Shown here: positions 1,452-45,837 of the stretch, piece by piece | Numbering within the stretch: the first letter of the stretch is position 1 | Layout: the number at the start of each line of letters is the position of its first letter | Assembly (NCBI GenBank): GCA_029938605.1 | Contig: JAOZUO010000004.1 | Location: 23,048-87,047 of the forward strand | Reading direction: 5' to 3' | Length of the DNA: 64,000 nucleotides | Origin: Deltaproteobacteria bacterium | GTDB lineage: Bacteria; Myxococcota_A; Polyangia; HGW-17; JAJRWW01 | The notes under the pieces: model-generated | Database searches by the model: none | The model's input: the letters and a program-made list of their open reading frames with translations, nothing else | What the model was told of the DNA's origin: nothing | Position numbers and translations under genes: made by a program

Positions 1452-1473
1452 GTAGGACCGGACCCGTTTGGAG

Positions 1474-1731
1474 TTAGTCTTTGCGGTCGTCGCGGTCCAG
1501 GCGCGCCTGGAGCTGGCGTCCGAGCGCCTGGGCTTCGGCGTCGACGCGGTGTTGGCCGGTGGCCATCCAGGCGATCCAGCCCACCAGCCCGAGCCACAGC
1601 GTGGCGTATAGGACTACCAGTAGCGTTGGCGAGGGGAGGGCCTCGGACGCCTGGTCAAGACCCTTGGCGAGGGCCCAGAGGATGTTCGCCAGAACGGTGT
1701 TCGCCTGGACGGTGTTCGCCAGGACCATCAT
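1474..1731 (-). CDS. Small single-TM membrane protein, hypothetical; overlaps the ccmH stop by 4 nt
   Basis: 85-aa ORF with one hydrophobic helix (LLVVLYATLWLGLVGWIAWMA) and a 15-bp in-frame repeat at its N-terminus (ANTVQANTVLAN). Placement is by operon context only. Confidence 0.3.
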   Translation of the reverse strand: MMVLANTVQANTVLANILWALAKGLDQASEALPSPTLLVVLYATLWLGLVGWIAWMATGQHRVDAEAQALGRQLQARLDRDDRKD

Positions 1732-2270
1732 CCCGGGGCCGTCGATGGGTGACCGGTCTTGGGTTTTGAGGACGGGGCTTTTCCCGCTACGAGGGCGTCG
1801 ATGCGCTCTTCGAGCTCGGCCGGGATTTTGAAATCCTTGGGCAGGTTCTGGTCGGGTCCGGCCGAGGGCGCCCGCTTGCGGGTCATGAGCACAGTCATCA
1901 CCAGCAGGCCGATGAAGGCCAGCCCGAAGGGGACGCCGTACAACACAAAGCCGGAGAGTCCGCCTCCGGGGGGCTCGACGAGCACGGCCTGTCCGTACTT
2001 CTTTTTATAGTGGGCCAGGATCTGCTTCTGGGACTTGCCCTTGGAGAGCATGGTGCGGATGTCGGCGCGCATCTTCACGGCCAGGCCGGAGTTGTGGTCC
2101 GCCAGGGTGCCTTTGTAGCAACACGGGACCGTGAGCAGCTTCTCGATGCGTTTGGCTCGGTTCTCTACGTCGCGTTTCTTCGCGTCCGCGGCCGAGCCGC
2201 CGGCCAGGGCGTCGGGCGCCATGAAGGTCAAAGTAAACAGTGCCAATGGGAGAGTAAGGGCGCGGTTCAA
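1728..2270 (-). CDS. ccmH: Cytochrome c-type biogenesis protein CcmH/NrfF family, with signal peptide and C-terminal TM anchor
   Basis: The ORF runs to 2300 from a TTG; a better signal peptide (MNRALTLPLALFTLTFMAPDALA) starts from the TTG at 2270. VPCCYKGTLADHNSGLAVKMRADIRTMLSKGKSQKQILAHYKKKYGQAVLVEPP matches the CcmH thioredoxin-motif region (LRCxxCQNQSxADSNAP...) but with vicinal CC in place of CxxC. A C-terminal TM helix (FVLYGVPFGLAFIGLLVMTVLMT) is present. Confidence 0.6.
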   Translation of the reverse strand: MNRALTLPLALFTLTFMAPDALAGGSAADAKKRDVENRAKRIEKLLTVPCCYKGTLADHNSGLAVKMRADIRTMLSKGKSQKQILAHYKKKYGQAVLVEPPGGGLSGFVLYGVPFGLAFIGLLVMTVLMTRKRAPSAGPDQNLPKDFKIPAELEERIDALVAGKAPSSKPKTGHPSTAPG

Positions 2271-2351
2271 GGGATCGCTCCAAGGTAGTCCAGCCCACAA
2301 CCTAACACGTCATCGGCCGGAGTAAAGGCCACAGGGGTCTGGGTACTTGTC

Positions 2352-3245
2352 TTACCGCCGACGGCGATAGCCGGGCCTTGGGTGCTTTGTATAGATTTTT
2401 CGAAAGGAGTGGTTCCGGAGCTCGTACAGTATCTTGCGGGGCGCTGGGGCCAGGCACCGAGCACGTCGGGCGGGGAGGTCGTCCTGCCTGGTTCCTCTCA
2501 AGATCGTCTTTCCTCCTTTTTGCTCGATTCGGAGGTTGGATATGCTGTGGCCGCCGAAACCATCGGCGCTTCGTCGGCGTATGGTGAGCAGCAGGGTGTT
2601 GCGCCAGATGGCGCCCACCGGTACGAGCAGTAGATCCTGCCAGGACTCGGTGCCGGTGTGTCGGGAGGTTCCGAGGCCCAACCGGCCATTGCGGGGAGTG
2701 GGGCTCTTTTTGTGCAGGCGTTTGAAGCTAATTTTCAGTACGAGGATAGGGGTTTTCATGCCGCGGGCCCTGGCGTATCGCCAGGAGATGCGCCTGGAGC
2801 CGGGCCTCGATGGTTTGGCGAGATCGATGAGCTCGTGCAGGTGTACATCGTAGGCTTCCGTGAAACGGCGCGAAGCTGTCGGTGAGCCGTCCGGGGGTAC
2901 CAGGACGATGAGGTCCTGGCCCTTGTGGCGGAGCCAGCCCACGTATGCGACTACGCGGCCATCGACGTGGATGGATTTGACCTTTTTGATGGAGGCGATG
3001 GGTAGCCGGGATCCCTTCGCGACGATGTCGGCGAACTTCACGGTGACCGGCCCAGGTGTCTTTGTGACGGGGCGCATGACGACGCCCATGACGGGGCGTT
3101 TGACGGCGCCCACGAGGGGGCGCTTGTCGCTTGTGAGCTTCACAGGCTCTGACTGGGGTCGTGGCCCCTGTTTTTGCGTCGAGCACGAGGGGCTCGTCAT
3201 GGAGACGAGCACGGCGACGAGGCTAGAAGCATGGGGTCCAGTCAT
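2352..3245 (-). CDS. Hypothetical protein; the N-terminal ~200 aa look protein-like, the Arg-rich C-terminal third is dubious
   Basis: 297-aa ORF. The central segment (KFADIVAKGSRLPIASIKKVKSIHVDGRVVAYVGWLRHKGQDLIVLVPPDGSPTASRRFTEAYDVHLHELIDL) is compositionally typical of a real domain. The tail is R/P-rich and may be a frame artefact. No family recognised. Confidence 0.3.
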   Translation of the reverse strand: MTGPHASSLVAVLVSMTSPSCSTQKQGPRPQSEPVKLTSDKRPLVGAVKRPVMGVVMRPVTKTPGPVTVKFADIVAKGSRLPIASIKKVKSIHVDGRVVAYVGWLRHKGQDLIVLVPPDGSPTASRRFTEAYDVHLHELIDLAKPSRPGSRRISWRYARARGMKTPILVLKISFKRLHKKSPTPRNGRLGLGTSRHTGTESWQDLLLVPVGAIWRNTLLLTIRRRSADGFGGHSISNLRIEQKGGKTILRGTRQDDLPARRARCLAPAPRKILYELRNHSFRKIYTKHPRPGYRRRR

Positions 3246-3257
3246 AAGCGGACCTCC

Positions 3258-4703
3258 TTACAACGACAGCTTCTGAATGGTCCCATCTCCCCAATTCGTC
3301 CAGTATAGGCTCGTGGAGTCGATGGCGAGGTACTTGGGGGAGCCCTGTCCCGAGGCCAGGATGGTGCGCGAACCGCCCCCAACAGGGATGCGAGAGATCT
3401 CACCGGCGGTTGAATCGGACCAGTAGAGGAATCCGCCGTCGAGCAGAAGATGGTACGCGGATACTCCACCGGAAAACAGCGTGGTTACCGCGCCGCCGGC
3501 CAACGGGACCATCCTCACGGAACCGTCGCCGTTGCAGATGAAGTAGGCGTGGGTGGCGTCCAGGACGATCCAGTAGGGGCTGGGAACTCCAGAGGCGATG
3601 GTGGTGGCGGCCCCGCCCCCTATGGGAGCTCGCCTGACGGCGTCGTCGTCGATGCTCGTCCAGTAGATGTGGGTGGCGTTTACGGCGGGGCCGAAGGGAG
3701 AGGACTGATCGGTGGCGATGATGGTCGGGGTACCGACGCCGTTCAGCGGAACGCGCTGGACGGTGTCTCCGAAGTAGGTCGTGAAGTAGGCGTACTGGGT
3801 ATCGACCAGGAGCCCGATCGGACAGTCAAGGGTGTCCGCGATGGTTTGGGGCGAGGCGGAGCCGTTCACTGGGAGGCGCACGATCGAGCCGGTGTCTGTT
3901 TTGGCGTTCGACCAGTAGACGTAACCCTCGATCACATTGACGCCGGTGGGATCGTCCTGGCTACTTGCGAGCAGATCGACGGTTCCACCGCTCTTGGCGA
4001 CTCGCTTAATCTCTCCCGCCTCGGAGTTGGCCCAGAAGACGTGGGTTGAGTCCACGGCAATGCCCCATGGAGAGTACTGAGAGTCGGCCAGGGTGACGAT
4101 CGTCCATCCGCAGTCGTCGTGGCAGTTGTCCGGGAGCTCTCCCTTGGTGGTCTCGCAGATCCCATCGCCGCAAGTGAAGCACCCGGAGAGGTCCAGCTCA
4201 CACAGCGAGGTGCAGCTTAGAGAGCCCCCGGTGGCGCCGAGCTGGGCGCAGGTATTGCCCCCCAGGTTTGGCCCATCGCACATCTCGGGACCCTCGACGT
4301 TGGCGTTTCCGCAGGTGTAGCAGTCAGTATAATTCACCAGGCAATCTGTAGTGCACGATAGGGTGCCCTGGGTCAAACCGAGCCCGGATAAGCAGGTCTG
4401 TCCTCCGAAGTCGCTTCCGTCGCAAAGCTCGTTGGAATCGAGCACATCGTTGCCACATAGGAGGCCACCGTCGGTTGTCTGGGCGTCGGTCGTCTGGGCG
4501 TCGCTCGCATTTGCGTCCGTCGCCAGGGCGTCCCCCTGTCCACCGTCGGTTTGGAGAGGGTTGCTGAACGACACGACGCACCCCGATGATAGGAGTACGC
4601 CGTAGACAAGAAGCACCCACGGGGAAGGCAACGGCTTGTTTGGTGCATCGGAGTGGGTTTTGCAGCGAGTTTTTCTTATTGATATGTTGAATAGCCGAAT
4701 CAT
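3258..4703 (-). CDS. Secreted lipoprotein: Myxococcus cysteine-rich repeats followed by a six-bladed YWTD-type beta-propeller
   Basis: Lipobox LLSSGC. There are three or four CGNDxLDxxELCDGxxxGGxTC units of the myxobacterial C-GDG...E-CDDGN repeat class. Six propeller blades follow, each with an aromatic-W motif (HVFWANSEAGEIKRV, YVYWSN, AYFTT, HIYWTS, AYFICN, FLYWSDSTAGEISRI, SLYWTNWGDGTIQKL). Confidence 0.75.
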   Translation of the reverse strand: MIRLFNISIRKTRCKTHSDAPNKPLPSPWVLLVYGVLLSSGCVVSFSNPLQTDGGQGDALATDANASDAQTTDAQTTDGGLLCGNDVLDSNELCDGSDFGGQTCLSGLGLTQGTLSCTTDCLVNYTDCYTCGNANVEGPEMCDGPNLGGNTCAQLGATGGSLSCTSLCELDLSGCFTCGDGICETTKGELPDNCHDDCGWTIVTLADSQYSPWGIAVDSTHVFWANSEAGEIKRVAKSGGTVDLLASSQDDPTGVNVIEGYVYWSNAKTDTGSIVRLPVNGSASPQTIADTLDCPIGLLVDTQYAYFTTYFGDTVQRVPLNGVGTPTIIATDQSSPFGPAVNATHIYWTSIDDDAVRRAPIGGGAATTIASGVPSPYWIVLDATHAYFICNGDGSVRMVPLAGGAVTTLFSGGVSAYHLLLDGGFLYWSDSTAGEISRIPVGGGSRTILASGQGSPKYLAIDSTSLYWTNWGDGTIQKLSL

Positions 4704-4834: not shown

Positions 4835-6256
4835 CTACACCACTCCGAGCTTTTTGAGCTTGCGTAGAAGGGTGGTGCGGTGGATGCCCAGGTCCTGGGC
4901 GGCGCGGGTGCGGTTGCCGCCGGACCGCTCGAGGGCGGTGAGGATCGCGTCCCGTTCGATCATGCCCAGTCCGCCCCAGACCTGTGGGGAGGCGGCGCCT
5001 GGTATGGACCCGGAGGCGTCTTTACGTAGGGGGGTGGCGAACAGGTGCGGAGGCAGGTGCTCGGGTCCTATGCGCGCGGAGCGGCACAGGACCACGGCGT
5101 GCTCCATGGCGTTCTCCAGCTCGCGGATGTTGCCGGGCCAGGGGTAGCGTACGAGCGCCGCGAGGGCTTCGGGCGATACGCCGTCGATGGCTCTGTGCGA
5201 AGCTCCCGCCAGGCGACGGACGAAGTGGCGCACCAGCAGGGGGATGTCTTCGGTGCGGCCCCGCAAGGGCGGCAGGGGGATCTCGATGATGTGGATGCGG
5301 TAGAATAGATCCTCTCGGAACCGCTTCTCCGCTACGGCTTGACGCAGATCCACGTGGGTGGCGGCGATGATCCGCACGTCGGCGCTGACCGTCTCGGTGG
5401 CGCCGAGGGGCTCGTACCGGTGGTCCTGCAGGAAGCGGAGCAGCTTCGCTTGGATGGACAGGGGGAGATCGCCCACCTCGTCCAGAAACAGCGTGCCCTG
5501 GTCGGCCTGGGCGATGCGGCCGGGCTTGTCGCGCCGGGCGTCGGTGAAGGCGCCCTTGCGGTAGCCGAACAGCTCTGACTCGATGAGGGTCTCGGGCACG
5601 GCCGCGCAGTTGAAGGCCACGAAGGGGCCCTTGGAGCGTCCGCTCTGGTTGTGCAGGGCGCGGGCCACCAGCTCTTTGCCCGTGCCGCTCTCGCCCGTGA
5701 CCAGCACCGTGGTGCAGGAGTCGGCGATGAGGGGCAGGGTGGCGAAGATGCGCTCCATCTCCGGGTTGCGGCTGATGATGTCCTCGAACTGGTACTGCCC
5801 GTCGAGCTTGCGCTGCAGGGCCTCCATGCCGGAGATGTCCCGGAACATCTCCACGCCGCCGATGAGCGCGCCGTCGGGGGCCACCAGGGGCGACGTGGAT
5901 ACGAGGATGGGGACGGAGCGACCGTCCCGGGTCTGGATGCGTACCTGCTGGCGGCCGATGGACTCCCGCTCCCCCATGGACTGCTTCAACGGGCAGATGC
6001 CGTCGCACAGATCCGTGCGGAAGATCTCGGAGCACTGACGGCCTATGGCCTCCTCGGGGCAGTAGCCGGTGATGAGCTCGGCGCCGCGGTTGAAGGAGGT
6101 GATCCGCGTGGACTCGTCCACGGTGAAGATGCCCTGGTCAATGGCGTCCAGGATGAGGGGCACGTAGCGATGGTCGAACGGATCGGGCACAGCATCACCT
6201 TGTGTGAAAAAGTAGCATAGGTGAAATCGTAGCAATTTGCATCGATAGTGATGCAT
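4835..6256 (-). CDS. Sigma-54-dependent transcriptional activator (PAS sensor - AAA+ sigma-54 interaction - Fis-type HTH)
   Basis: PAS-like N-terminus (IFTVDESTRITSFNRGAELITGY), Walker A GESGTGKELVARALH, ESELFGY (GAFTGA-type) motif and C-terminal HTH (RTRAAQDLGIHRTTLLRKLKKLG). The exact start is uncertain; an in-frame GTG lies downstream of the listed ATG. Confidence 0.85.
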   Translation of the reverse strand: MHHYRCKLLRFHLCYFFTQGDAVPDPFDHRYVPLILDAIDQGIFTVDESTRITSFNRGAELITGYCPEEAIGRQCSEIFRTDLCDGICPLKQSMGERESIGRQQVRIQTRDGRSVPILVSTSPLVAPDGALIGGVEMFRDISGMEALQRKLDGQYQFEDIISRNPEMERIFATLPLIADSCTTVLVTGESGTGKELVARALHNQSGRSKGPFVAFNCAAVPETLIESELFGYRKGAFTDARRDKPGRIAQADQGTLFLDEVGDLPLSIQAKLLRFLQDHRYEPLGATETVSADVRIIAATHVDLRQAVAEKRFREDLFYRIHIIEIPLPPLRGRTEDIPLLVRHFVRRLAGASHRAIDGVSPEALAALVRYPWPGNIRELENAMEHAVVLCRSARIGPEHLPPHLFATPLRKDASGSIPGAASPQVWGGLGMIERDAILTALERSGGNRTRAAQDLGIHRTTLLRKLKKLGVV

Positions 6257-6375
6257 CAGTGTAGCAGAGTACGTCTATTTATGCAATAGCCAAGGGGGAG
6301 ATTGAAAGGGAGGCGGATTGTGTAACCAACTGAAACTATGTCGAAACTACTGAGAGGCGGCGGTGCAGCACCGGG

Positions 6376-6391
6376 CGGTCCGGAATTTGCA
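6376..6391 (+). promoter_or_regulatory. Possible weak sigma-54 (-24/-12) promoter for the downstream Hmc-type operon
   Basis: cGGtccggaatTTGCA satisfies GG-N10-GC with a perfect TTGCA -12 element but a poor -24 context. It lies ~95 nt upstream of the proposed GTG start at 6483 and next to a divergently encoded sigma-54 activator. Confidence 0.25.
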
Positions 6392-6482
6392 CAATGCGCG
6401 GAATGAGCAGAATGAACAGAAACAGCGGAAACAACCGAAAACGCAGAATCTGTGGTGTTCCCGGAAAGGAAGGACGGCGGCG

Positions 6483-6932
6483 GTGAGTGAAGACCGGTCC
6501 AGTACTAACACAGGCTGCCAGGAAGACAAGCCGTTGCAGCATGGCGACGTGGCCTTCAGTACGGGCCAGGCCGCGCGGTATTGCTTCGTCACCGGGGACA
6601 CCATCGTCAACTGGATCAAGAGCGGCTCCCTAAGCGCTCAGAAGACCCCCGGGGGCCAGTACCGCATTCTGGTGACTGTGCTGTACGCCTTCATGCGCGA
6701 GCACGACATGAACACCGCGCTGCTCGAGGCCGAGCATAACGTGCGTCCGCTCTGCATGGAGTTCCATTGTCGTCGGCAGAAGACGCTTGGCTGCTCCGAA
6801 TGCCTGGTCAACCGATCCGGCGCCCAGCGTTGCTGGGAGCTGCGGACCGTGCTGCACGCTTCGGACGCGCGGCCCGGGCGATGCGAGGACTGTGACTACT
6901 TCCGGCGGTACTGCCGCGAGGATGGCCAATGA
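6483..6932 (+). CDS. Excisionase/MerR-type HTH DNA-binding protein with a C-terminal cysteine-rich (8 Cys) domain
   Basis: The ORF is annotated from 6363 but the N-terminal 40 codons are low-complexity and AT-rich; GTG at 6483 is proposed. The HTH segment FSTGQAARYCFVTGDTIVNWIKSGSLSAQKTPGGQYRI resembles excisionase-family DNA-binding domains. The C-terminal domain is CMEFHCRRQKTLGCSECLVN...RCEDCDYFRRYC. The stop overlaps the next gene's start (ATGA). Confidence 0.5.
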   Translation: MSEDRSSTNTGCQEDKPLQHGDVAFSTGQAARYCFVTGDTIVNWIKSGSLSAQKTPGGQYRILVTVLYAFMREHDMNTALLEAEHNVRPLCMEFHCRRQKTLGCSECLVNRSGAQRCWELRTVLHASDARPGRCEDCDYFRRYCREDGQ

Positions 6933-8215
6933 CCGAACGTGAGACCGAACGCGAGACCGGACGCGAGAAATGGAACTGGGACGTAGGCTCCCGCAACGTT
7001 GCCGATCTGGGCAAGCTCCGCGCCGCGTACACCGATGTGCACGAGCTCACGGTCAGCGCCGACGGAGAGCGGGTGGCCGCGCCTGTGGTGGCCGAGGACG
7101 GCTCCTTCAGGGTGGCGGTCAACGGTGAGGTGTGGGAGACCGAGCTGGAGAAGGCTTGGCACCTGAAGTTCACGCCTGATGACCGGCTCACCGCCCTGGT
7201 GCGCGTGGATGACATGTGGACCGTGGCCGTGGAGGGCGAGCTTTGGGAGCAGCGGTATCCCTTCGCCTGGAACACGAAGTTCTCCGCCGATGGGCGCACC
7301 ATCGCCGTGCAGATCAAAGCCGGCATGGAGTACTCCCTGTGCATCAATGACAAGCCCTGGGACCGGAACTTTCTGTCCATCCGGAACTACGCCTTGTCCG
7401 ATGACGGCCGACGGGCGGCCGCCCTGGTGCAGGTGGTGGAGCTCGTCACCGCCGACACCGAGACCTTCGCCGAGGGCACCTGGAGCGTGGCCGTGGACTC
7501 GGAGACCTGGGACGAGAAGTTCATCGGCGTGTGGGCGCCGGTGATCAGCCCCGATGGGGAGCACGTGGCCGTACAGACCCGCACCGAGCGGTTCGCCTAC
7601 ACCATCGCCCTCGATGGCGCCCCGTGGGAGTCCCGGTATGGTTGCGTGTGGGAGCCCGGGTTCAGGCCCCGGGGCGAGGGGCTTTTAGCGCCCGTGCGGA
7701 CCGGGGCCTCCTGGAGCCTGGCCGAGGACGGCGAGCCCCTTTGGAAGACCCCCTACGTGCAGTTGTGGTACGTGCGCTTCTCCCCGGCGGGGGAGCGGGT
7801 GGCCGCGGTGGTGGCCACTGACTTCGGCCGGTGGACCGTGGCGGTGGACGACCGCCCCTGGGGATGCACCTTCGGGGACGTGGTAATGGCGCCGGTGTTC
7901 TCCACCGACGGTAAGCGCGTGGCGGCCGCCGTCAGGCACGAGGGGCGTTGGACCGTGGCGGTGGACGGTGAGCCCTGGTCCCATTGGTTCGACACGGTGT
8001 GGGATCCGGTGGTGGGGGCCGGGCGCGGTCCGGTCCTGGCCAAGGTGAAGAACCAGGGCGCCTATGGTTTGGCCGTGGACGGTCGTGTGGGCGCCCAGCG
8101 GTATGAGCACCTCTGGGATCCGACCTTCAGTCCGGACGGCGACAAGGTCCTGATCCGCGGCGTGCAGAGCGGAAAGTACATCCGGCGGGTCGTCCTGACC
8201 GAGGAGCTGGGATGA
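6929..8215 (+). CDS. Cytoplasmic beta-propeller repeat protein (about nine ~45-aa PD40/TolB-like repeats), translationally coupled to the following NarI-like gene
   Basis: No signal peptide. The repeat unit is FSPDG.RVAA.V...GRWTVAVDGEPW...F..VWDPV, seen nine times (for example FSPAGERVAAVVATDFGRWTVAVDDRPWGCTF and FSTDGKRVAAAVRHEGRWTVAVDGEPWSHWF). The N-terminus carries a 12-bp x3 codon repeat (TERETERETGRE). There are 4-nt ATGA overlaps at both ends. Confidence 0.7.
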   Translation: MTERETERETGREKWNWDVGSRNVADLGKLRAAYTDVHELTVSADGERVAAPVVAEDGSFRVAVNGEVWETELEKAWHLKFTPDDRLTALVRVDDMWTVAVEGELWEQRYPFAWNTKFSADGRTIAVQIKAGMEYSLCINDKPWDRNFLSIRNYALSDDGRRAAALVQVVELVTADTETFAEGTWSVAVDSETWDEKFIGVWAPVISPDGEHVAVQTRTERFAYTIALDGAPWESRYGCVWEPGFRPRGEGLLAPVRTGASWSLAEDGEPLWKTPYVQLWYVRFSPAGERVAAVVATDFGRWTVAVDDRPWGCTFGDVVMAPVFSTDGKRVAAAVRHEGRWTVAVDGEPWSHWFDTVWDPVVGAGRGPVLAKVKNQGAYGLAVDGRVGAQRYEHLWDPTFSPDGDKVLIRGVQSGKYIRRVVLTEELG

Positions 8216-8868
8216 GCACTATGGTCAACTTTGTCTCAGGTCCCCTGGTCTGGATCGCCCTGGTCACGTTCGTGGTGGGGACCGTGGTGCGCATTGTCTT
8301 GATGATCCGCACCATCAAACTGGACAAGACCGTCCTGCCCGCCATGACGGTCAAACACAGCCTCCGGTCTATCTTCTTTTGGACGCTGCCCTACGGGAGC
8401 CGGTCCATGCGGACGCGCCCGTTCTTCTCGGGCCTGTCCTACCTCTTCCACCTGTGTCTGCTGGCGCTGCCGCTTACGGTCATGGGGCACGCGGTGCTCT
8501 GGCAACAGGCCTGGGGGATCCGCTGGTGGAGCCTGCCTTCCGGGGTGGCGGACGTGATGACGGCGGTGGTGATCTTCGCCGGGGGGATCTTTTTGTTGCG
8601 GCGGATCATGTCTCCGGAGGTGCGCAACGTAAACACCTGGCGGGACTACGTGATCCTGGTCATCGTTCTTTTGCCCTTCGTCACCGGGTTCATCGCCTAC
8701 CACCAGTGGCTGGACTACCGGACGATCATCATCCTGCACATGGTCAGCGGCGCGGTGTGGCTCATGGCCATTCCGTTTACGTGGCTGCAGCACATGTTCA
8801 TGTTCTTCTTCTCCCGAGCGTACATGGGCAGCGAGTTCGGCGCCGTACGCAACGCGCGGGATTGGTAA
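8212..8868 (+). CDS. hmcE: NarI-type dihaem cytochrome b membrane subunit (HmcE / DsrM / HmeC family)
   Basis: 218 aa with 5-6 TM helices and conserved His in helices (LFHLCLL, MGHAVL, ILHMVSG, LQHMF), as in nitrate-reductase-gamma-like quinol-oxidising subunits. The size matches HmcE. Confidence 0.8.
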   Translation: MSTMVNFVSGPLVWIALVTFVVGTVVRIVLMIRTIKLDKTVLPAMTVKHSLRSIFFWTLPYGSRSMRTRPFFSGLSYLFHLCLLALPLTVMGHAVLWQQAWGIRWWSLPSGVADVMTAVVIFAGGIFLLRRIMSPEVRNVNTWRDYVILVIVLLPFVTGFIAYHQWLDYRTIIILHMVSGAVWLMAIPFTWLQHMFMFFFSRAYMGSEFGAVRNARDW

Positions 8869-8880
8869 AGGGTAGGTCGT

Positions 8881-10209
8881 ATGGCGGATCTCGAAGATAT
8901 GGCGGTGGCTGACCCGGGATTCGATCTCGCGCTGGCGAAGCTCACCCCCGAGCGCATCGAGCAGGTGATCAACTCGGTCCTCTCCCAGGCGGTGGCCGAG
9001 AGGATGAAGCTGTTTCTCAAAACCTGCGTGCACTGCGGCCTCTGCGCCGACGCGTGTCACACCTACCTGTCGCGGAACCGGGACCCGGATTTCGCGCCGG
9101 TGGCCAAGGTTCGGGATACGCTGGGGGTGATGCTGAAAAAGAAGGGCCGCGTCAGTCCCGAGTTCATGAAGAACGCGGCGCGCGTGGCCTTCATCGAGTG
9201 CGGCGGCTGCCGGCGCTGCTCCATGTACTGCCCCTTCGGCATCGACATCGCCACGATGATCATGACCATCCGGCGCATCTGCAGCCTCCTGGGCATGGTG
9301 CCCCAGTTCATTCAGGACACCACCAACAGCCACTCCGCCACGTCGAATCAGATGTGGGTCCAGCCCGACGACTGGATCGACACGGTCATGTGGCAGGAGG
9401 AGGACGCCCAGCTCGAGGTAGCCGGCCTCCGCATCCCCCTGGACAAGGAGGGCGCCGAGGTCATGTACTCGGTGATCGCGCCCGAGCCCAAGGTCATGGC
9501 GCAGCTCATCGCCAACATCGCCGTGCTCATGACCGTAGCCAAGGTGGACTGGACCATGCCGTCGGCCGACGGGTGGGACAACAGCAACATGGCCATGTTC
9601 TCGGGGGACCTCGAGATCATGGGGCGCATCGAGCGGGAGCACTGGGAGCGCGCCCTGGAGCTTCGGGTGGGCAAGATGGTCATGGGCGAGTGCGGCCACG
9701 CCTACCGCGGCGCGGTGTACGACGGCCCCAAGTGGCTGGGGTGGCAGGGGCCGCCCTTGCCCATGGTGCACGCGGTGGAGCTCTACTACGACCTTCTGCG
9801 CGAGGGGCGCATCGAGATCACCGACAAGCTCACCGAGCCGGTGACCATCCAGGATCCTTGCAACATCGTGCGCGGGCGCGGCCTGCACGAGAAGCTGCGG
9901 TACGTGGTCCATGCTCTGTGCGACAACGTCGTCGAGATGGACCCCAAGTTCGAGCACAACTACTGCTGTGCCGCCGGCGGCGGGATCATCAACTGCGGCG
10001 CGCCCTGGAAGATGGCGCGGCTCAAGTCCATCAAGATCAAGGCCACGCAGCTCAAAAAAACGGGTGCGAGCCTGTGCATCACGCCTTGTCACAACTGCCA
10101 CCACGGCGTTGTGGACATCATCGGTCACTACCACATCGACATGCGCACCTCGTTCCTCATCGAGTTGATCGTCAAGCAGATGAAGATACCCGAGGGGCTA
10201 GGAGTATGA
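8881..10209 (+). CDS. hmcF: HdrD-like iron-sulfur oxidoreductase with two [4Fe-4S] motifs and two CCG domains (HmcF / DsrK / HmeD family)
   Basis: CVHCGLCADAC and CGGCRRCSMYCPFG ferredoxin motifs. CCG-domain signatures are DPCNIVRGRG, NYCCAAGGG and CITPCHNCHHG. The stop overlaps the next start (ATGA). Confidence 0.85.
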   Translation: MADLEDMAVADPGFDLALAKLTPERIEQVINSVLSQAVAERMKLFLKTCVHCGLCADACHTYLSRNRDPDFAPVAKVRDTLGVMLKKKGRVSPEFMKNAARVAFIECGGCRRCSMYCPFGIDIATMIMTIRRICSLLGMVPQFIQDTTNSHSATSNQMWVQPDDWIDTVMWQEEDAQLEVAGLRIPLDKEGAEVMYSVIAPEPKVMAQLIANIAVLMTVAKVDWTMPSADGWDNSNMAMFSGDLEIMGRIEREHWERALELRVGKMVMGECGHAYRGAVYDGPKWLGWQGPPLPMVHAVELYYDLLREGRIEITDKLTEPVTIQDPCNIVRGRGLHEKLRYVVHALCDNVVEMDPKFEHNYCCAAGGGIINCGAPWKMARLKSIKIKATQLKKTGASLCITPCHNCHHGVVDIIGHYHIDMRTSFLIELIVKQMKIPEGLGV

Positions 10210-11834
10210 CGACCATGTCTGGACGAATCGCAGCGTGGGTCCCGGCCGCACTGGTCTTGGCCCTCGTCCTGGATGCGGGAGCGTCAGCGGGGTGTCAGCG
10301 TCCGGCGGCCCAACCCACCCGGGAGGTGGGTCCCGGCGTCCTGGTGATCCGCATGGCGCCGGCGCTGGGCAAGATGCGTCGGCCCCCCGTGACGTTTGAT
10401 CATGACCAACACTCGGCCGCGGTCAAAGGCGACTGTAAGACCTGCCACCTCGTGGATCGCGCCCAGACGCTGTCTGCGAAGTTCCTGCGGGGTAACGACG
10501 GTAAGAGCGCCGGCAAGCTTCAGGACTTTTATCACGATCGCTGCCTGGGCTGTCACAAGCGGCGCGGCCGGGGCGCCATGGTCTGTGGTGAGTGCCACGC
10601 CAAGGGACCCCGGATCCGATCGACCTGGAAGGAGCTCCGCATGGACTACTCCCTCCACGCGCGTCACGTCCTGGCCCAGCAGAAGCGGTGCGCCGACTGT
10701 CACCACGTCTTCGACAAAGCGAAGCAGAAGCTGGTGTACAAAAAAGGAGCCGAGGAGAGCTGCAAGTCCTGCCACACCGCCCGCACCGTGGGGCGGCGGC
10801 CGTCCCTGCGGTTGGCGGCGCACCAGGCTTGCATCTCGTGCCACCTGCGGACCCGGGGTGCCGGTCTGGCCACAGGTCCCCTGGACTGCGCGGGTTGCCA
10901 TGGCCCCCGGGCCCAGTCGAAGATCAAGCGGTTGGAGCACCCCGAGCGGCTCATGCGCGGCCAAAAGGACCGGCTGTGGGTGAAGGCCAAAGGGGGCAGT
11001 TCCCAGCGGGTCCCCTTCAACCACCTGGCCCACGAGAAGGCCGGGTCGAGCTGCAGCACCTGTCACCACCAGACCCTGGGATCCTGCAACGGGTGTCACA
11101 CCATGGGGGGCGCGAAAAAGGGCGGCGGAGTGACCCTGGCCCAGGCCCACCACGACCCCGGATCTGTGCATAGCTGCGTGGGCTGTCACGCCCAGGCGAC
11201 CAAGCAGGCGAGCTGCGCTGGATGTCACCATACGATCAAGGCCGAGGCCAGTCGGCGAAGCTGCGGTGTTTGTCACAGTGGGCCCAAGGCGGGGACTCCG
11301 CTGGCGGCGGGGATTCCGCTGGCGGCGGGGACTTCGGTGGCGGCGGGGACTCCGCTGGCGGCGGGGACTCCGCTGGCGGTGGGGACTACGCTGGCCCCTC
11401 CCGTCGTGTCGCGTCGCGTGACCACGGCCCTACCGGCCTACTCCAAGGATTTCCCCGAGCGGGTCACCATCAAGATCCTCGCCCGGGACTATGCGCCGGT
11501 GGTGATGGAGCACGGGCGCATGGTGCGCAAGCTGCACAGCCTGGCGACGAAGAGCTCGCTGGCGGTACGGTTCCACGGTGGGGTCGAGTCCCTGTGCGCG
11601 GGGTGTCACCACCGGGCCAAGCCCGGGACCCGGCCCGCGCCCTGTAGCGCATGCCACACCCGCCAGGGCCACGCCACCCGGGACCGACCGGCGCTTGGGG
11701 CGGCCTACCATCGGCAGTGCGTGGGTTGTCATCAGAAGATGGGGCTCACCAGGTGGCAGGGCTGCGAAAGCTGTCACAAGAAGGGGTCGTCGAAAAAAAC
11801 CGCTGGCTCCCGGCCGCGAGGAGGAGTGCGATGA
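10206..11834 (+). CDS. hmcA: Sixteen-heme periplasmic cytochrome c (HmcA-like high-molecular-weight cytochrome)
   Basis: Begins at the ATG at 10206 inside the long 9054..11834 frame. Signal peptide MTTMSGRIAAWVPAALVLALVLDAGASAG. There are sixteen CxxCH motifs (CKTCH, CLGCH, CGECH, CADCH, CKSCH, CISCH, CAGCH, CSTCH, CNGCH, CVGCH, CAGCH, CGVCH, CAGCH, CSACH, CVGCH, CESCH) in ~540 aa, which is the HmcA architecture. Confidence 0.85.
   Translation: MTTMSGRIAAWVPAALVLALVLDAGASAGCQRPAAQPTREVGPGVLVIRMAPALGKMRRPPVTFDHDQHSAAVKGDCKTCHLVDRAQTLSAKFLRGNDGKSAGKLQDFYHDRCLGCHKRRGRGAMVCGECHAKGPRIRSTWKELRMDYSLHARHVLAQQKRCADCHHVFDKAKQKLVYKKGAEESCKSCHTARTVGRRPSLRLAAHQACISCHLRTRGAGLATGPLDCAGCHGPRAQSKIKRLEHPERLMRGQKDRLWVKAKGGSSQRVPFNHLAHEKAGSSCSTCHHQTLGSCNGCHTMGGAKKGGGVTLAQAHHDPGSVHSCVGCHAQATKQASCAGCHHTIKAEASRRSCGVCHSGPKAGTPLAAGIPLAAGTSVAAGTPLAAGTPLAVGTTLAPPVVSRRVTTALPAYSKDFPERVTIKILARDYAPVVMEHGRMVRKLHSLATKSSLAVRFHGGVESLCAGCHHRAKPGTRPAPCSACHTRQGHATRDRPALGAAYHRQCVGCHQKMGLTRWQGCESCHKKGSSKKTAGSRPRGGVR
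11287..11396 (+). repeat. Six 18-bp in-frame tandem repeats inside hmcA encoding a (G-T-P-L-A-A)-type linker
   Basis: gcggggactccgctggcg repeated about six times with point variants. It encodes AGTPLAAGIPLAAGTSVAAGTPLAAGTPLAVGTTLAPP between heme clusters 12 and 13. Confidence 0.8.
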
Positions 11835-12919
11835 GCATTTCACGGAGAGGATTCATCGGCGGCGCTGGCGCGGGCGCGGTGGCGTCGGTGGCGGTGGGTA
11901 GCAAGGCGGCCCGGGCGGGGGGCGGCGCGGATCGGTTCATGGGCCACCCGGGGTCCATGGGACTTTTGCATGACACCACCCTGTGCGTGGGGTGCCGGTC
12001 CTGCGAGCTCGCCTGCACCAAGGTCAACTCAAAGCCCAAGCCCGCGGGGCCTCTGCACGACAAGTCCATCTTTTCCAAGCTGCGGCGGGTCACAGACAAG
12101 CTGTACACGGTGGTGAACCGGTACGTGAAGGCGGCAGGCAAAAAGCCGGCGGTGTACCGCAAGCATCAGTGCATGCACTGTCAGGAGCCCTGCTGCGCCT
12201 CGGTGTGTTTCGTCAAGGCCTTCACCAAGACCCCCGAGGGGCCGGTGCTGTACGACCCGAGCGTGTGCGTGGGCTGTCGCTACTGCGTGAACGTGTGTCC
12301 CTACTACGCCCTGGGATATGAGTACGACAACGCCTTCAATCCCACGGTACAGCGGTGCACCATGTGCTACACGCGCATCAAAAAGGGGGAGGAGCCCGGG
12401 TGCGCCCAGGCGTGTCCCATGGGGGCCATCGTCTACGGCAAGCGCGAAGATCTACTCAAGCTGGCCCGGCAGCGCATCGCCAAGTTCCCGGACCGGTATG
12501 TGGACCAGGTGTTTGGCGAGCACGAGTACGGCGGCACGAGCTGGTTGACCATCGCCGGGGTGACCTTCGACAAGCTCGGCCTGCCGGTGAATGCCAGCCA
12601 CAAGCCCCTGCCCGAGCTGACGGCGGGGTTTTTGTCCATCGTACCTTTGGTGATCACCATCTACCCGGGGCTGCTGTTAGGCTTTCATGCCTGGACCAAG
12701 CGCAAGGAGCGGTTGGCCGAACAGGAGCGACTGGCGGCGGCCGCCGAGGCCAAGGCCGCCGCCGAGGCGGCGGGCGCCACCAAGGCCGCCCAGCAGAAGA
12801 AGCTCGCAGATTCCCGCCACGCCAAGGCGGTGGACCTGGCCGTGAAGAAGGCGCTGGCCCAGGCGGCTAAGGAGCGTGAGGCGGAGTCTGACGCGGCGAA
12901 GAAGGAGGACACCCCATGA
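11831..12919 (+). CDS. hmcB: Tat-exported 4x[4Fe-4S] ferredoxin-type subunit with C-terminal TM anchor (HmcB / DsrO / PsrB family)
   Basis: Twin-arginine leader MSISRRGFIGGAGAGAVASVAVG. Four Cys clusters (CVGCRSCELAC; CMHCQEPCCASVC; CVGCRYCVNVCP; CTMC...CAQACP). A C-terminal helix (FLSIVPLVITIYPGLLLGF) is followed by an Ala/Lys-rich tail. ATGA overlaps at both ends. Confidence 0.8.
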   Translation: MSISRRGFIGGAGAGAVASVAVGSKAARAGGGADRFMGHPGSMGLLHDTTLCVGCRSCELACTKVNSKPKPAGPLHDKSIFSKLRRVTDKLYTVVNRYVKAAGKKPAVYRKHQCMHCQEPCCASVCFVKAFTKTPEGPVLYDPSVCVGCRYCVNVCPYYALGYEYDNAFNPTVQRCTMCYTRIKKGEEPGCAQACPMGAIVYGKREDLLKLARQRIAKFPDRYVDQVFGEHEYGGTSWLTIAGVTFDKLGLPVNASHKPLPELTAGFLSIVPLVITIYPGLLLGFHAWTKRKERLAEQERLAAAAEAKAAAEAAGATKAAQQKKLADSRHAKAVDLAVKKALAQAAKEREAESDAAKKEDTP

Positions 12920-14151
12920 GTGACTCCACTGCCAACGACGTCGGTGTTGCCACGGACGTCGGTGTCGCCACGGACGTCGGACCTGCCACGGAGGCGGCGC
13001 CCACAAAGCGGCCGCTGCTGACTCCCTTCAACATCATCGCCACGTTGATCCTGCTGGCGGGCGTGGCGGCGGGGCTCTACCGCCTCGCCGTGGGGCTCGG
13101 GCCCTCCACCAACCTGGACCACGTGAACCCCTGGGGCCTGTGGATCGGCTTCGACGTCATGACCGGTGTGGCCCTGGCCGCCGGCGGATTCACCATCTCG
13201 TCGGCGGTGTACCTCTTCGGCCTCAAGGAGTACCAGCCCCTGGTGCGGCCGGCCATCCTCACGGGCTTTCTGGGGTACTTCCTGGTGGTGGTGGGACTGC
13301 TGGTCGATCTGGGGCAGCCCTGGCGGCTGCCGTACACCTTCGCGGTACAGGCCGGACCCACCTCGGCGCTGTTCGAGATCGCCCTGTGCGTGGCGCTGTA
13401 TCTCACCACCCTGTTCGTGGAGTTCACGCCGGCGGCCTTCGAGTGGCTCGGCTGGAAGCGGTGGCGGGCCCTGGTCCACTCCATGACCATCGCCCTGACC
13501 ATCTTCGGGCTGATCCTGTCGACCATGCACCAGTCCACCCTGGGGGCCATGTACCTGATCGCCCCGTCTCGGTTGCACCCGCTGTGGTATTCGACGCACA
13601 TCCCGGTGCACTTCTTCGTGTCGGCGGTCATCGCGGGTCTGTCCATGGTGATCTTCGAGTCGGCCCTGTCCCACCGGGTCTTCGCCGACAAGGTGGAGAT
13701 CACGCACGAGAAGCTCGACGAGATGACCATTGGACTGGCCAAGGCGGCCTGCGTCGCCCTGGGGGTGTACCTGGCCATCAAGGTGGTCTCTGTCTCCCTG
13801 GACAACGAGTGGGCGCTGCTGTTTACGCCCTACGGCCACTGGTACCTCTTTGAGATCCTAGGCTTCGTGGTGCTGCCCTTGATTGGGTACACCATCGGCT
13901 TCCGAGAGAGGCGGCCCACGATCATTCGGGTCTCGGCGGTGATCACGGTTTTGGGCATCGTGCTCAATCGGTTGAACGTGTCGATCTTCGCCTACAACTG
14001 GCAGTTGCCGGCCCACGAGCGGTACTGGCCCCACCCGTACGAGATCATCGTCACGGTGGCGCTGGTGACCTTCGGCGTTGTGATGTTCAAGTGGATCGCC
14101 AACCGGATGCCCATTTTGCACGAACACCCCGACTGGCGGGGCGATCACTAG
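12916..14151 (+). CDS. hmcC: NrfD/PsrC-type integral membrane quinone-interacting subunit (HmcC / DsrP family)
   Basis: 411 aa with ~10 TM helices typical of the NrfD family. The N-terminus has an 18-bp x3 repeat (NDVGVATDVGVATDVGPAT). Confidence 0.8.
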   Translation: MSDSTANDVGVATDVGVATDVGPATEAAPTKRPLLTPFNIIATLILLAGVAAGLYRLAVGLGPSTNLDHVNPWGLWIGFDVMTGVALAAGGFTISSAVYLFGLKEYQPLVRPAILTGFLGYFLVVVGLLVDLGQPWRLPYTFAVQAGPTSALFEIALCVALYLTTLFVEFTPAAFEWLGWKRWRALVHSMTIALTIFGLILSTMHQSTLGAMYLIAPSRLHPLWYSTHIPVHFFVSAVIAGLSMVIFESALSHRVFADKVEITHEKLDEMTIGLAKAACVALGVYLAIKVVSVSLDNEWALLFTPYGHWYLFEILGFVVLPLIGYTIGFRERRPTIIRVSAVITVLGIVLNRLNVSIFAYNWQLPAHERYWPHPYEIIVTVALVTFGVVMFKWIANRMPILHEHPDWRGDH

Positions 14152-14296: not shown

Positions 14297-14345
14297 GGGC
14301 TTCGGTGACGACCGGGCTTCGGTGACGACCGGGCTTCGGTGAAGG
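14297..14345 (+). repeat. Intergenic 17-bp tandem repeat (about 2.9 copies) directly upstream of the receiver gene RBS
   Basis: gggcttcggtgacgacc gggcttcggtgacgacc gggcttcggtgaagg, followed by GAAGGAGA and the ATG at 14357. Confidence 0.8.
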
Positions 14346-14356
14346 AGACAGACCCC

Positions 14357-45829: not shown

Positions 45830-45837
45830 GGGAGATT

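What the first reader, a model, noticed from the sequence alone, without database searches (positions are those of the whole stretch)
6483..8215. Two unexpected leader genes translationally coupled to the Hmc-type operon: an excisionase-HTH/8-Cys protein and a cytoplasmic nine-repeat beta-propeller
The genes at 6483..6932 and 6929..8215 overlap each other and the hmcE-like start by ATGA, so they are almost certainly co-translated with the respiratory complex. Neither has a counterpart in described hmc or dsrMKJOP loci. The first combines a MerR/excisionase-type HTH with a C-terminal cluster of eight cysteines (CMEFHC...GCSEC...RCEDCDYFRRYC), which fits a metal- or redox-sensing regulator. The second is a signal-peptide-less PD40-like propeller (FSPDG..VA....GRWTVAVDGEPW...F..VWDP x9). 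That suggests a cytoplasmic scaffold or substrate-presenting partner for the HdrD-like subunit.
Basis: partly seen in the sequence, partly recalled or inferred. Interest (0 to 1): 0.55.

Follow-up and report, generated by a model that had tools for sequence, protein, structure and literature searches.

The report
TmcD propeller plus unnamed HTH-cysteine regulator
The two "leader" genes are real and belong to the respiratory operon: the propeller is TmcD, an already described subunit of the Tmc electron-transfer complex, while the small DNA-binding protein with a cysteine cluster belongs to an unnamed family that heads this kind of operon in at least six bacterial phyla.

Summary
The sequence observation holds. 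ORFs 6483..6932 and 6929..8215 overlap each other and the next gene by ATGA. Three more ATGA overlaps (10206, 11831, 12916) tie the whole cluster into one operon.

The propeller is TmcD: NCBIfam equivalog NF045725 scores 505.6 bits against a cutoff of 440. The next two genes are TmcC and TmcB, followed by HmcA, HmcB, HmcC and HmcD. The order tmcD-tmcC-tmcB is canonical in a Desulfovibrio-type tmc locus. The same tmcDCB + hmcABC composite occurs in Thermodesulfovibrio yellowstonii. The AlphaFold2 model (pLDDT 94.7) shows ten repeats, nine full and one truncated, and matches ten-bladed sortilin best.

The HTH/Cys protein is the newer part.
- It has a BldC/excisionase-like HTH plus a cysteine module with six invariant Cys that matches no Pfam family and no PDB sequence.
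- In most of about 45 full-length genome loci from six or more phyla it lies just upstream of an HdrD/DsrK-like gene.
- It usually sits behind a conserved sigma-54 promoter, next to a divergent sigma-54 activator.
- Relatives carry fused receiver and DsrC-like domains.

It is most likely a regulator of its own operon. No cofactor, DNA target or signal has been shown.

The parts
4835..6256 (-). Divergently transcribed sigma-54 enhancer-binding protein (PAS - AAA+ - HTH_8). The true start may lie about 25 codons further in.
   Evidence: Pfam Sigma54_activat 229.9 bits, PAS, HTH_8. An orthologue sits in the same position in most HTH-Cys loci. The L001 orthologue is 447 aa.
6228..6289 (.). Upstream-activating-sequence-like conserved blocks: CGTAGCAATTTGCATC (6228-6243), TGTAGCAGAGTACGTC (6260-6275) and TATGCAATAG (6280-6289). 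The protein that binds them is unknown.
   Evidence: Conserved in the alignment with L001 and L003. In the upstream regions of 40 loci, TGTAGCG occurs in 13 (0.7 expected), TGTAGCA in 11 (0.8 expected) and TGTTGCA in 16 (2.2 expected).
6376..6391 (+). Sigma-54 (-24/-12) promoter-like site CGGTCCGGAATTTGCA. The transcript start is inferred near 6403.
   Evidence: Three mismatches to TGGCAC-N5-TTGCW, which is not significant on its own in the window. The site is positionally conserved in L001 and L003. 27 of 39 distinct loci have a site with at most 2 mismatches at -250..-30, against 0.7 +/- 0.8 in control windows.
6463..6474 (+). Purine-rich ribosome-binding region GGAAAGGAAGGA, 8 nt before GTG 6483.
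   Evidence: Read directly from the sequence.
6483..6932 (+). HTH-Cys protein, 149 aa: a BldC/excisionase-type winged HTH (about residues 24-73) plus a helical Cys-rich module (residues 85-149).
6929..8215 (+). TmcD, 428 aa: a cytoplasmic Trp-rich beta-propeller with ten repeats.
   Evidence: NF045725 scores 505.6 bits against 440. Homologues are named TmcD. AF2 pLDDT is 94.7. The best Foldseek TM-score is to ten-bladed sortilin. Repeat alignment.
8212..8868 (+). TmcC, a NarI-type membrane cytochrome b anchor.
   Evidence: NF045723 scores 268.6 bits against 240. HmcE scores 197 against 275.
8881..10209 (+). TmcB-like HdrD/DsrK-family cytoplasmic Fe-S/CCG subunit. It contains the GECGH motif.
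   Evidence: NF045724 scores 669 bits (cutoff 735), against HmcF 382 and DsrK 184. Fer4_8 + CCG domains. The GECGH motif is visible in the translation and is described in PMC10861901.
10206..11834 (+). HmcA-type multihaem cytochrome c with a signal peptide.
   Evidence: NF045713 scores 453 bits against 400. N-terminus.
11831..12919 (+). HmcB-like periplasmic Fe-S subunit with a Tat signal.
   Evidence: NF045715 scores 400 bits (cutoff 420). RRGFIGG is visible in the translation.
12916..14151 (+). HmcC-like NrfD-type membrane subunit.
   Evidence: NF045714 scores 540.6 bits (cutoff 550). Pfam NrfD.
14174..14296 (+). HmcD, a 40-aa membrane peptide.
   Evidence: NF045712 scores 58.2 bits against 34. 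The L001 orthologue carries PF28260.
14339..14887 (+). Single-domain receiver protein (DVU0259-like).
   Evidence: Response_reg 70 bits. The best NCBIfam hit is DVU0259_DivK, 84 bits, below its cutoff of 160.
14916..16448 (+). Cytoplasmic PAS histidine kinase.
   Evidence: PAS_4 and HATPase_c. It is conserved downstream in most related loci.

Best explanation
The region is the front of a sigma-54-dependent operon, HTH-Cys - tmcD - tmcC - tmcB - hmcA - hmcB - hmcC - hmcD. A receiver protein and a PAS kinase follow it.

**Gene 2** is TmcD, the known cytoplasmic Trp-rich subunit of the Tmc transmembrane electron-transfer complex. It is a ten-repeat beta-propeller without conserved cysteines. It therefore most likely acts as a non-redox docking or stabilising subunit next to the HdrD-like catalytic subunit TmcB. 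That role is inferred.

**Gene 1** encodes a small DNA-binding protein: a BldC/excisionase-type HTH followed by a Cys6-7 metal- or thiol-based module that matches no Pfam family and no PDB sequence. It is the conserved first gene of HdrD/NarI-type (Tmc/Hmc/DsrMK-like) operons in Myxococcota, Acidobacteriota, Planctomycetota, NC10, Omnitrophota and Armatimonadota. Because it is made from the same transcript as the complex, it most likely feeds back on the sigma-54 promoter region. In this reading the cysteine module sets its DNA-binding or oligomeric state according to cellular redox or metal state. That would make it functionally analogous to the Fe-S regulator Rrf2 of the Desulfovibrio hmc operon.

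**Shown:** identities, gene order, linkage, the promoter motif, cysteine conservation, and the domain fusions.

**Inferred:** DNA target, cofactor, signal, and the direction of regulation.
For: **TmcD identity**
- Equivalog HMM above its cutoff, with full-length coverage.
- Named TmcD homologues at about 40% identity.
- tmcD-C-B adjacency in L056, L057, L001, L003, L009, L015, L030, L032, L035 and L043.

**Propeller**
- AF2 pLDDT 94.7, pTM 0.88.
- TMq 0.55 to ten-bladed sortilin, against 0.43-0.46 for three intermediate matches that I recall, untested here, as nine-bladed eIF3b/eIF2A, and roughly 0.25-0.35 for most WD40-type matches.
- Ten aligned repeats.
- No conserved Cys among 40 homologues.

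**Operon**
- Five ATGA overlaps.
- Terminator-like sites at chance level.

**HTH-Cys linkage**
- Of about 40 full-length loci tabulated, the next gene on the same strand is an HdrD/DsrK-like gene in about 27 and TmcD in 7.
- In about 5 more loci an HdrD-like gene lies within 1-3 kb.
- A divergent sigma-54 activator is present in most loci.

**Promoter and upstream motifs**
- A sigma-54 promoter motif in 27 of 39 loci against 0.7 expected.
- A shared upstream TGTAGC motif.

**Regulator role**
- The closest solved relatives of the HTH are the DNA-binding proteins BldC, RacA and Xis.
- Relatives carry HTH-Cys fused to receiver domains, and to receiver plus DsrC-like domains.
- An HTH-Cys-REC gene sits directly upstream of a dsrC-like and a narI-like gene in L060.
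- Another lies among PAS kinases in L061.
Against: - Nothing here shows DNA binding, a cofactor or a signal.
- The Cys module has only moderate model confidence (pLDDT about 80) and no structural match.
- In the receiver-fused relatives the input is presumably phosphorylation. The Cys module may therefore be structural (for example Zn-dependent folding or dimerisation) rather than a sensor.
- The window's own sigma-54 site has three mismatches and is not significant by itself.
- Canonical tmc/hmc loci of sulfate reducers lack the HTH-Cys gene, so it is not needed for complex function as such.
- The function of TmcD is unknown in the papers I could read, and it was not tested here.
Confidence: 0.7

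Rival explanations
1. The Cys module is a purely structural Zn site, and the protein is a DNA-architectural cofactor. It would bend or bridge DNA like Xis, BldC or IHF to help the divergent sigma-54 activator contact the promoter, and would not sense anything itself.
For: - The HTH is closest to BldC, Xis and RacA, which act as architectural or multimerising DNA binders.
- The protein sits next to a sigma-54 activator and a sigma-54 promoter in most loci.
- In fused relatives a receiver domain supplies the input.
- Some relatives carry tandem triplication of the Cys module, like zinc-finger arrays.
- Individual Cys-module sequences give only weak, non-significant Pfam hits to zinc-finger families.
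Against: - Six to seven invariant Cys across six phyla in a helical module would equally fit an Fe-S site.
- No Zn-finger family matches significantly.
- The placement in a redox-enzyme operon favours a redox signal.
Confidence: 0.2
2. The HTH-Cys protein is a redox partner or substrate of the HdrD-like subunit. It would be a DsrC-surrogate thiol/disulfide carrier, or a transcription factor whose cysteines are reduced by TmcB. That would couple electron flow through the complex directly to gene expression.
For: - It sits directly upstream of an HdrD/DsrK-like gene in about 27 loci from organisms outside the classic sulfate reducers.
- Relatives are fused to a DsrC-like domain: PF04358 scores 33.8 and 29.8 bits against a gathering score of 24.9.
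- In L060 an HTH-Cys-REC gene precedes a dsrC-like gene.
- DsrK-type subunits reduce DsrC (PMC10861901).
Against: - The fused DsrC-like domains lack the canonical C-terminal Cys arm.
- The HTH is a bona fide DNA-binding fold.
- No interaction data exist.
- Sulfate-reducer tmc loci work without this gene.
Confidence: 0.1
3. One reading: both genes are novel accessory components without counterparts in described complexes, and the propeller is a new scaffold.
For: Neither gene is part of hmcABCDEF or dsrMKJOP as such. The HTH-Cys gene is absent from the two sulfate-reducer loci examined.
Against: The propeller passes the TmcD equivalog model and sits in the canonical tmcD-C-B order. TmcABCD is a described complex.
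Confidence: 0.03
4. Gene 1 is a remnant excisionase of a mobile element that happens to lie upstream of the operon.
For: The only names given by source databases are 'excisionase family DNA-binding protein' and 'helix-turn-helix domain-containing protein'. TIGR01764 matches.
Against: - No integrase is adjacent.
- The position upstream of HdrD-type operons is conserved across six or more phyla.
- The family has a conserved extra Cys module.
Confidence: 0.01

Closest known systems
TmcD of the TmcABCD complex (Desulfovibrio vulgaris; Pereira et al. 2006, cited in PMC10861901 and PMC5109826)
   Same: - It passes the NCBIfam TmcD equivalog model over its full length.
- It is about 40% identical to proteins named TmcD.
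- It is Trp-rich (23 Trp, 5.4%).
- It has no signal peptide.
- It is encoded directly upstream of tmcC-tmcB.
   Different: - The partner cytochrome here is a 16-haem HmcA-type protein, followed by HmcBCD, instead of the tetrahaeme TmcA. T. yellowstonii has the same composite apart from a recognised HmcD.
- The host appears to be a Myxococcota-type organism.
- The operon is sigma-54-dependent and is led by an extra HTH-Cys gene.
Rrf2/Rrf1 regulators encoded with the D. vulgaris hmc operon (from my own knowledge of Keon and Voordouw's work; not read here)
   Same: In both cases a small DNA-binding protein with a cysteine-based site, plus a receiver protein, is encoded in the same operon as an Hmc-type complex.
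   Different: - There is no sequence relationship: no Rrf2 Pfam hit at E<=0.1.
- The HTH type differs (HTH_17/MerR superfamily).
- The gene is first rather than last in the operon.
- The Cys pattern differs.
BldC (Streptomyces; PDB 6ama, 6amk) and other minimal MerR-superfamily/excisionase HTH proteins
   Same: It is the best solved-structure relative of the N-terminal domain. The profile E-value is 1.7e-4 and Foldseek TM is 0.85-0.90 on the target.
   Different: BldC has no C-terminal module. The protein here adds a 60-aa Cys6-7 module that is absent from Pfam and from PDB sequences.
SoxR ([2Fe-2S] MerR-type redox sensor)
   Same: Both combine an HTH of the MerR superfamily with a C-terminal cysteine site. 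There is a weak fold match (E 0.018).
   Different: - The model shows no long dimerisation helix.
- The Cys spacing is different and much longer.
- There is no significant similarity beyond the HTH.
Sortilin Vps10p ten-bladed propeller (PDB 3f6k)
   Same: It is the best global superposition of the TmcD model (TMq 0.55). Both have ten blades.
   Different: Sequence identity is 9%, with a different repeat type and different cellular context. The resemblance is in architecture only.

Membership tests
TmcD (NCBIfam NF045725, equivalog) | Whole-protein score above the curated cutoff, with end-to-end coverage | tested here: met
   505.6 bits against 440. Residues 14-422 match profile positions 2-410 of 412.
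TmcD (NCBIfam NF045725, equivalog) | Encoded next to tmcC (NarI-type) and tmcB (HdrD-type) | tested here: met
   TmcC scores 268.6 against 240. TmcB is the best hit at 669 bits, below its cutoff of 735. The same order is found in L056 and L057.
TmcD (NCBIfam NF045725, equivalog) | Tryptophan-rich and cytoplasmic (no signal peptide) | tested here: met
   23 Trp in 428 aa. The N-terminus is charged. Many Trp are invariant or nearly so among 40 homologues.
TmcD (NCBIfam NF045725, equivalog) | Physical subunit of the purified Tmc complex | not testable with these tools
   Needs biochemistry.
Canonical TmcABCD operon | Tetrahaeme type II cytochrome c3 (TmcA) as the periplasmic subunit | tested here: not met
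   The gene after tmcB is a 542-aa HmcA-type cytochrome (NF045713, 453 bits against 400). The TmcA model scores 97 against 114.
Canonical HmcABCDEF operon | HmcE and HmcF as the cytochrome b and HdrD-like subunits | tested here: not met
   HmcE scores 197 against 275. HmcF scores 382 against 750. The Tmc models score higher for both.
Excisionase/HTH_17 DNA-binding domain (TIGR01764, PF12728) | Domain model above its cutoff, and a winged-HTH fold | tested here: met
   TIGR01764 scores 30.2 against 28.8. Pfam HTH_17 scores 25 against 27 for this sequence, but is recorded for nearly all homologues.
MerR family proper (e.g. SoxR, CueR) | Long antiparallel coiled-coil dimerisation helix after the HTH, with the effector site at its end | tested here: not met
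   The AF2 model has only short helices after residue 73. MerR-family matches are weak, at E>=0.018 with RMSD above 10 Å.
WhiB-like [4Fe-4S] proteins | Sequence-profile similarity to a Wbl protein | tested here: not met
   hhalign probability is 1.6% against M. tuberculosis WhiB1.
Rrf2 family | Rrf2 HTH domain | tested here: not met
   No Rrf2 hit at E<=0.1 in Pfam or NCBIfam.
PD40/TolB-type propeller | Significant PD40 repeats, or the TolB equivalog | tested here: inconclusive
   PD40 scores 26 bits against 20.9 summed over the protein, with no individually significant repeat. TolB scores 16 against 343.

The most novel reading that the evidence does not exclude
The HTH-Cys family could be a new class of thiol- or metal-based transcription factors whose cysteine module is reduced or oxidised by the HdrD/DsrK-like subunit of the complex it is co-translated with. 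That would give direct enzymatic feedback from a respiratory heterodisulfide-reductase-type site to a sigma-54 promoter. The stand-alone form would work with the operon's single-domain receiver protein as a split version of the HTH-Cys-REC(-DsrC-like) fusion proteins.
Probability: 0.12. Interest if true: 0.75.

Novelty: new variant of a known kind. Interest (0 to 1): 0.4.

Why it matters
**TmcD.** Nothing new arises beyond placing it in a Myxococcota-type genome and supporting a ten-bladed fold. It should not be reported as a discovery.

**HTH-Cys family.**
- It is unnamed in the source databases searched. It comprises 323 clusters at 90% identity with the full-length profile (E<=1e-5). The Cys-module profile alone finds 210 representatives at 50% identity (E<=1e-3).
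- Its genomic behaviour is tight: first gene of sigma-54-dependent HdrD/NarI-type operons across at least six phyla.
- It therefore marks a widespread, unstudied group of Tmc/Hmc/DsrMK-like complexes outside the sulfate reducers, and gives a handle on how they are regulated.
- The fusions to receiver and DsrC-like domains hint at a link between DsrC-type chemistry and transcription. That link could be tested directly.

**Evolution of Tmc.** The composite tmcDCB-hmcABCD order is colinear with the canonical tmcDCBA order. This fits the published idea that Tmc derives from Hmc (PMC5109826).

Tried and rejected
1. **Start at GTG 6363 for gene 1.** Rejected. It lies upstream of the conserved sigma-54 site, and homologues are about 150 aa.
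2. **The sigma-54 site judged on the window alone.** Not significant: 243 matches against 261 expected at up to 3 mismatches. Only the cross-locus test supports it.
3. **WhiB-like Fe-S domain.** hhalign probability 1.6%.
4. **SoxR/MerR-type architecture.** Only weak matches, driven by the HTH.
5. **Pfam and PDB sequence searches with the Cys module alone.** Nothing significant.
6. **Foldseek of the full HTH-Cys model.** No hit at E<=1e-3, and the top 50 listed are HTH or other DNA-binding proteins, with no Cys-rich module among them.
7. **Split response regulator idea.** The fused receiver domains are only generically similar (19-27% identity) to the operon's receiver protein. The idea stays a lead.
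8. **Longer homologues (200-280 aa) from the first searches.** These are mostly N-terminal over-calls, not extra domains.
9. **A second HTH-Cys copy in the window.** None found by tblastn.
10. **Intrinsic terminators and sigma-70 promoters in 6000-17000.** At chance level.
11. **Literature.** Several searches for TmcD were swamped by unrelated acronyms. The Pereira 2011 review could not be fetched. No paper was found on an excisionase-type protein linked to heterodisulfide-reductase-like operons.
12. **Model coordinates were not accessible.** I could not measure which cysteines cluster together, and I could not count blades geometrically.
Full report
**1. What is in the sequence.**

ORFs 6483..6932 (the mechanical ORF starts at 6363) and 6929..8215 are present on the + strand.
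- The stop of the first overlaps the start of the second in ATGA at 6929-6932.
- The stop of the second overlaps the next start in ATGA at 8212-8215.
- The same overlap recurs at 10206-10209, 11831-11834 and 12916-12919.
- A simple scan finds terminator-like sites only at the chance rate, none of them at a gene junction.
- A metagenomic contig (L001) and a Myxococcota MAG contig (L003) carry the same gene order at 69-92% protein identity.

**2. The operon.**

NCBIfam models name the genes.

| Coordinates | Best model | Score | Cutoff | Other models |
|---|---|---|---|---|
| 6929..8215 | TmcD (NF045725) | 505.6 | 440 | - |
| 8212..8868 | TmcC | 268.6 | 240 | HmcE 197 (cutoff 275) |
| 8881..10209 | TmcB | 669 | 735 | HmcF 382, DsrK 184 |
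| 10206..11834 | HmcA | 453 | 400 | - |
| 11831..12919 | HmcB | 400 | 420 | - |
| 12916..14151 | HmcC | 540.6 | 550 | - |
| 14174..14296 | HmcD (40 aa) | 58.2 | 34 | - |

- A single-domain receiver protein (14339..14887) and a PAS histidine kinase (14916..16448) follow.
- A PAS-AAA+-HTH_8 sigma-54 activator is transcribed divergently (4835..6256).

The locus is therefore a Tmc front half joined to an Hmc back half, not an 'Hmc-type operon with two extra genes'.

**3. The propeller is TmcD.**

- Besides the equivalog hit, database homologues at 37-42% identity over the full length are named 'electron transfer complex subunit TmcD'. They come from Thermodesulfovibrio and Desulfovibrio.
- TmcABCD is a described complex (Pereira et al. 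2006, as cited in PMC10861901, and PMC5109826). TmcD has been used as a phylogenetic marker and modelled with AlphaFold2 (PMC10553843).
- In a Desulfovibrio oxyclinae-type contig the transcription order is tmcD-tmcC-tmcB-tmcA. TmcD as the gene immediately upstream of the cytochrome b gene is thus the rule.
- In T. yellowstonii the order is tmcD-tmcC-tmcB, then a 525-aa multihaem cytochrome, a called 61-aa gene without Pfam hits, an Fe-S protein and a NrfD protein. This is the same composite as here, apart from a recognised HmcD.
- I recall from Pereira et al. 2006 that TmcD is called a tryptophan-rich protein. Here it has 23 Trp (5.4%), many of them invariant or nearly so.

**4. Fold of TmcD.**

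- An AlphaFold2 model built on 40 homologues has mean pLDDT 94.7 and pTM 0.88. It is all-beta with ten strand hairpins.
- The sequence splits into ten repeats of 34-50 residues that align with one another.
  - The tenth lacks the DG-EPW strand.
  - The fourth carries a helical insert.
- Foldseek against the PDB gives the highest query TM-score (0.54-0.55) for the ten-bladed Vps10p domain of sortilin.
  - Three matches that I recall as nine-bladed eIF3b or eIF2A (blade number and identity not tested here) give 0.43-0.46.
  - Most WD40-type matches give roughly 0.25-0.35.
- I could not read the coordinates, so 'ten blades closed by the N-terminal W15/W17 segment' is an inference.
- No cysteine is conserved, so TmcD is unlikely to carry a redox centre.
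No paper I could read assigns TmcD a function.

**5. The HTH-Cys protein.**

*HTH domain*
- It passes TIGR01764 (30.2 bits against 28.8).
- It just misses Pfam HTH_17 (25 against 27).
- The AF2 model has pLDDT 80.5 overall and above 90 for residues 24-73.
- It superposes on BldC, RacA and phage Xis.
- A 60-sequence profile finds BldC at E 1.7e-4 and an HTH-B12 protein at E 3.7e-4 in the PDB.

*C-terminal module*
- The 60-residue module is predicted helical.
- Across 60 homologues at about 37-92% identity C91, C104, C107 and C117 are invariant, and C134 and C137 are present in 59 of 60.
- C34, inside the HTH, is also invariant.
- C96 is present in 34 of 60 and His95 in 38 of 60. C146 is not conserved.
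- The module alone matches no Pfam family and no PDB sequence.
- It is not WhiB-like.
- The only names given by source databases are 'excisionase family DNA-binding protein' and 'helix-turn-helix domain-containing protein'.

**6. Linkage of the HTH-Cys gene.**

- A scan of one genome per species returned 53 loci. About 45 contain the full-length protein. They come from Myxococcota, Acidobacteriota, Planctomycetota, NC10, Omnitrophota, Armatimonadota and unclassified 'Deltaproteobacteria'.
- Eight Chloroflexota, Proteobacteria and Planctomycetaceae hits match the HTH, or the HTH and little beyond it. They show no such linkage.
- In about 40 full-length loci tabulated, the next gene on the same strand is:
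  - an HdrD/DsrK-like gene in about 27 loci, usually followed by NarI-like, HmcB-like and HmcC-like genes;
  - TmcD-TmcC-TmcB in the Myxococcota-type loci;
  - something else in the rest, with an HdrD-like gene within 1-3 kb in about five more.
- One Acidobacteriota-type locus (L005) was examined in detail. It has a DsrK-like gene (281 bits), a TmcC/HmcE-like gene, an HmcB-like gene, and an HmcC-like gene fused to a multihaem domain, followed by a kinase and a DVU0259-type receiver.
- Intergenic gaps are 10-180 nt in these loci. In L001 the two genes overlap by 4 nt, as in the window. L003 looks the same, but I have only an approximate start estimate for it.
- The two sulfate-reducer tmc loci examined lack the gene.

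**7. Promoter.**

- The window has CGGTCCGGAATTTGCA at 6376-6391, with three mismatches to the sigma-54 consensus. Alone this is not significant.
- The site is positionally conserved in L001 and L003.
- Among 39 distinct loci, 27 have a site with at most two mismatches and intact GG/GC, 30-250 nt upstream of the gene. Control windows of the same loci give 0.7 +/- 0.8.
- About 100-150 nt further upstream lie conserved blocks containing TGTAGC(A/G) and TGTTGCA. They are enriched across the Myxococcota and Acidobacteriota loci.
- I cannot tell whether the activator or the HTH-Cys protein binds these blocks.

**8. Domain fusions.**

- A profile of the Cys module alone finds 210 representatives at E<=1e-3 among 1.84 billion.
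- Roughly 60 of the 141 representatives newly returned by that search carry a C-terminal extension of 90 aa or more.
  - In the cases tested this is a receiver domain (P0285, P0301).
  - In two cases it is a receiver plus a DsrC-like domain above the Pfam gathering score (P0319 33.8 bits, P0333 29.8 bits, threshold 24.9). That domain lacks the canonical C-terminal cysteine arm.
- Other relatives have three tandem Cys modules after one HTH.
- One HTH-Cys-REC gene lies directly upstream of a dsrC-like and a narI-like gene (L060). Another lies among PAS kinases (L061).
- These fusions argue for a signal-transduction or transcription role, and again tie the family to DsrC/DsrK-type systems.
- They also weaken the idea that the Cys module must be the sensor, because in the fused forms a receiver domain can supply the input.
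- The fused receivers are only generically similar to the operon's own receiver protein.

**9. Conclusion.**

- Gene 2 is a known subunit in its normal place. It is ordinary, apart from the host lineage and the support for a ten-bladed fold.
- Gene 1 belongs to an unnamed family. It is most likely an autoregulatory DNA-binding protein acting at a sigma-54 promoter region.
- Whether its cysteines bind Fe-S or Zn, and whether they sense anything, remains open.

**10. Confidence.**

| Claim | Probability |
|---|---|
| The propeller is TmcD | 0.95 |
| The operon is sigma-54-dependent | 0.8 |
| HTH-Cys is a conserved operon leader | 0.9 |
| HTH-Cys is a transcriptional regulator | 0.6 |
| The Cys module is a redox or metal sensor | 0.35 |

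Noticed in passing
window 45425..51172, minus strand: A second sigma-54-type locus with a DsrMK-like pair. In transcription order it holds:
- a sigma-54 activator (49424..51172);
- a near-consensus sigma-54 site TGGCCCGCAGGTTGCA at 49151-49166 (one mismatch);
- an 84-aa ORF with a C-x5-C pair (48853..49107);
- a receiver protein (48457..48837);
- a 315-aa ORF with hydrophobic stretches and no NCBIfam hit (47454..48401);
- a DsrK-like protein (45838..47448; 291 bits, cutoff 400);
- another receiver (about 45425..45832).

There is no HTH-Cys paralogue in the window.
   Followed up: partly
window 14297..14340: A 17-nt unit, GGGCTTCGGTGACGACC, is repeated about 2.5 times in tandem between hmcD and the receiver gene. 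Its purpose is unknown.
   Followed up: no
L057 8001..15099 (Thermodesulfovibrio yellowstonii, GCA_027925485.1): A cultured sulfate reducer carries the same tmcD-C-B + multihaem + Fe-S + NrfD composite as the window, without the HTH-Cys gene. It is colinear with the canonical tmcD-C-B-A order of L056. This fits the idea that Tmc is a shortened Hmc-like complex.
   Followed up: partly
P0319, P0333, P0244, P0243; L060 209..2299: Variant architectures of the HTH-Cys family:
- HTH-Cys-receiver-DsrC-like;
- HTH followed by three tandem Cys modules;
- an HTH-Cys-receiver gene directly upstream of a dsrC-like and a narI-like gene.
   Followed up: partly
L005 11465..13303: In the Acidobacteriota-type locus L005 the HmcC-like NrfD subunit is fused to a C-terminal multihaem cytochrome c domain (612 aa) instead of having a separate HmcA.
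   Followed up: no
window 29341..30681: An IS66-family transposase (DDE_Tnp_IS66, 158 bits) lies between polysaccharide-synthesis genes and an MTHFR-like gene.
   Followed up: no
window 957..4703, and L001 1..8284: In L001, cytochrome c maturation genes (CcmE, CcmF, CcmH) lie just beyond the sigma-54 activator. The window has ORFs of similar size and position (957..1451, 1728..2300). It also has a 481-aa ORF with Cys-rich N-terminal repeats followed by repeated stretches (3258..4703, minus strand). I did not run any of these against the libraries.
   Followed up: no
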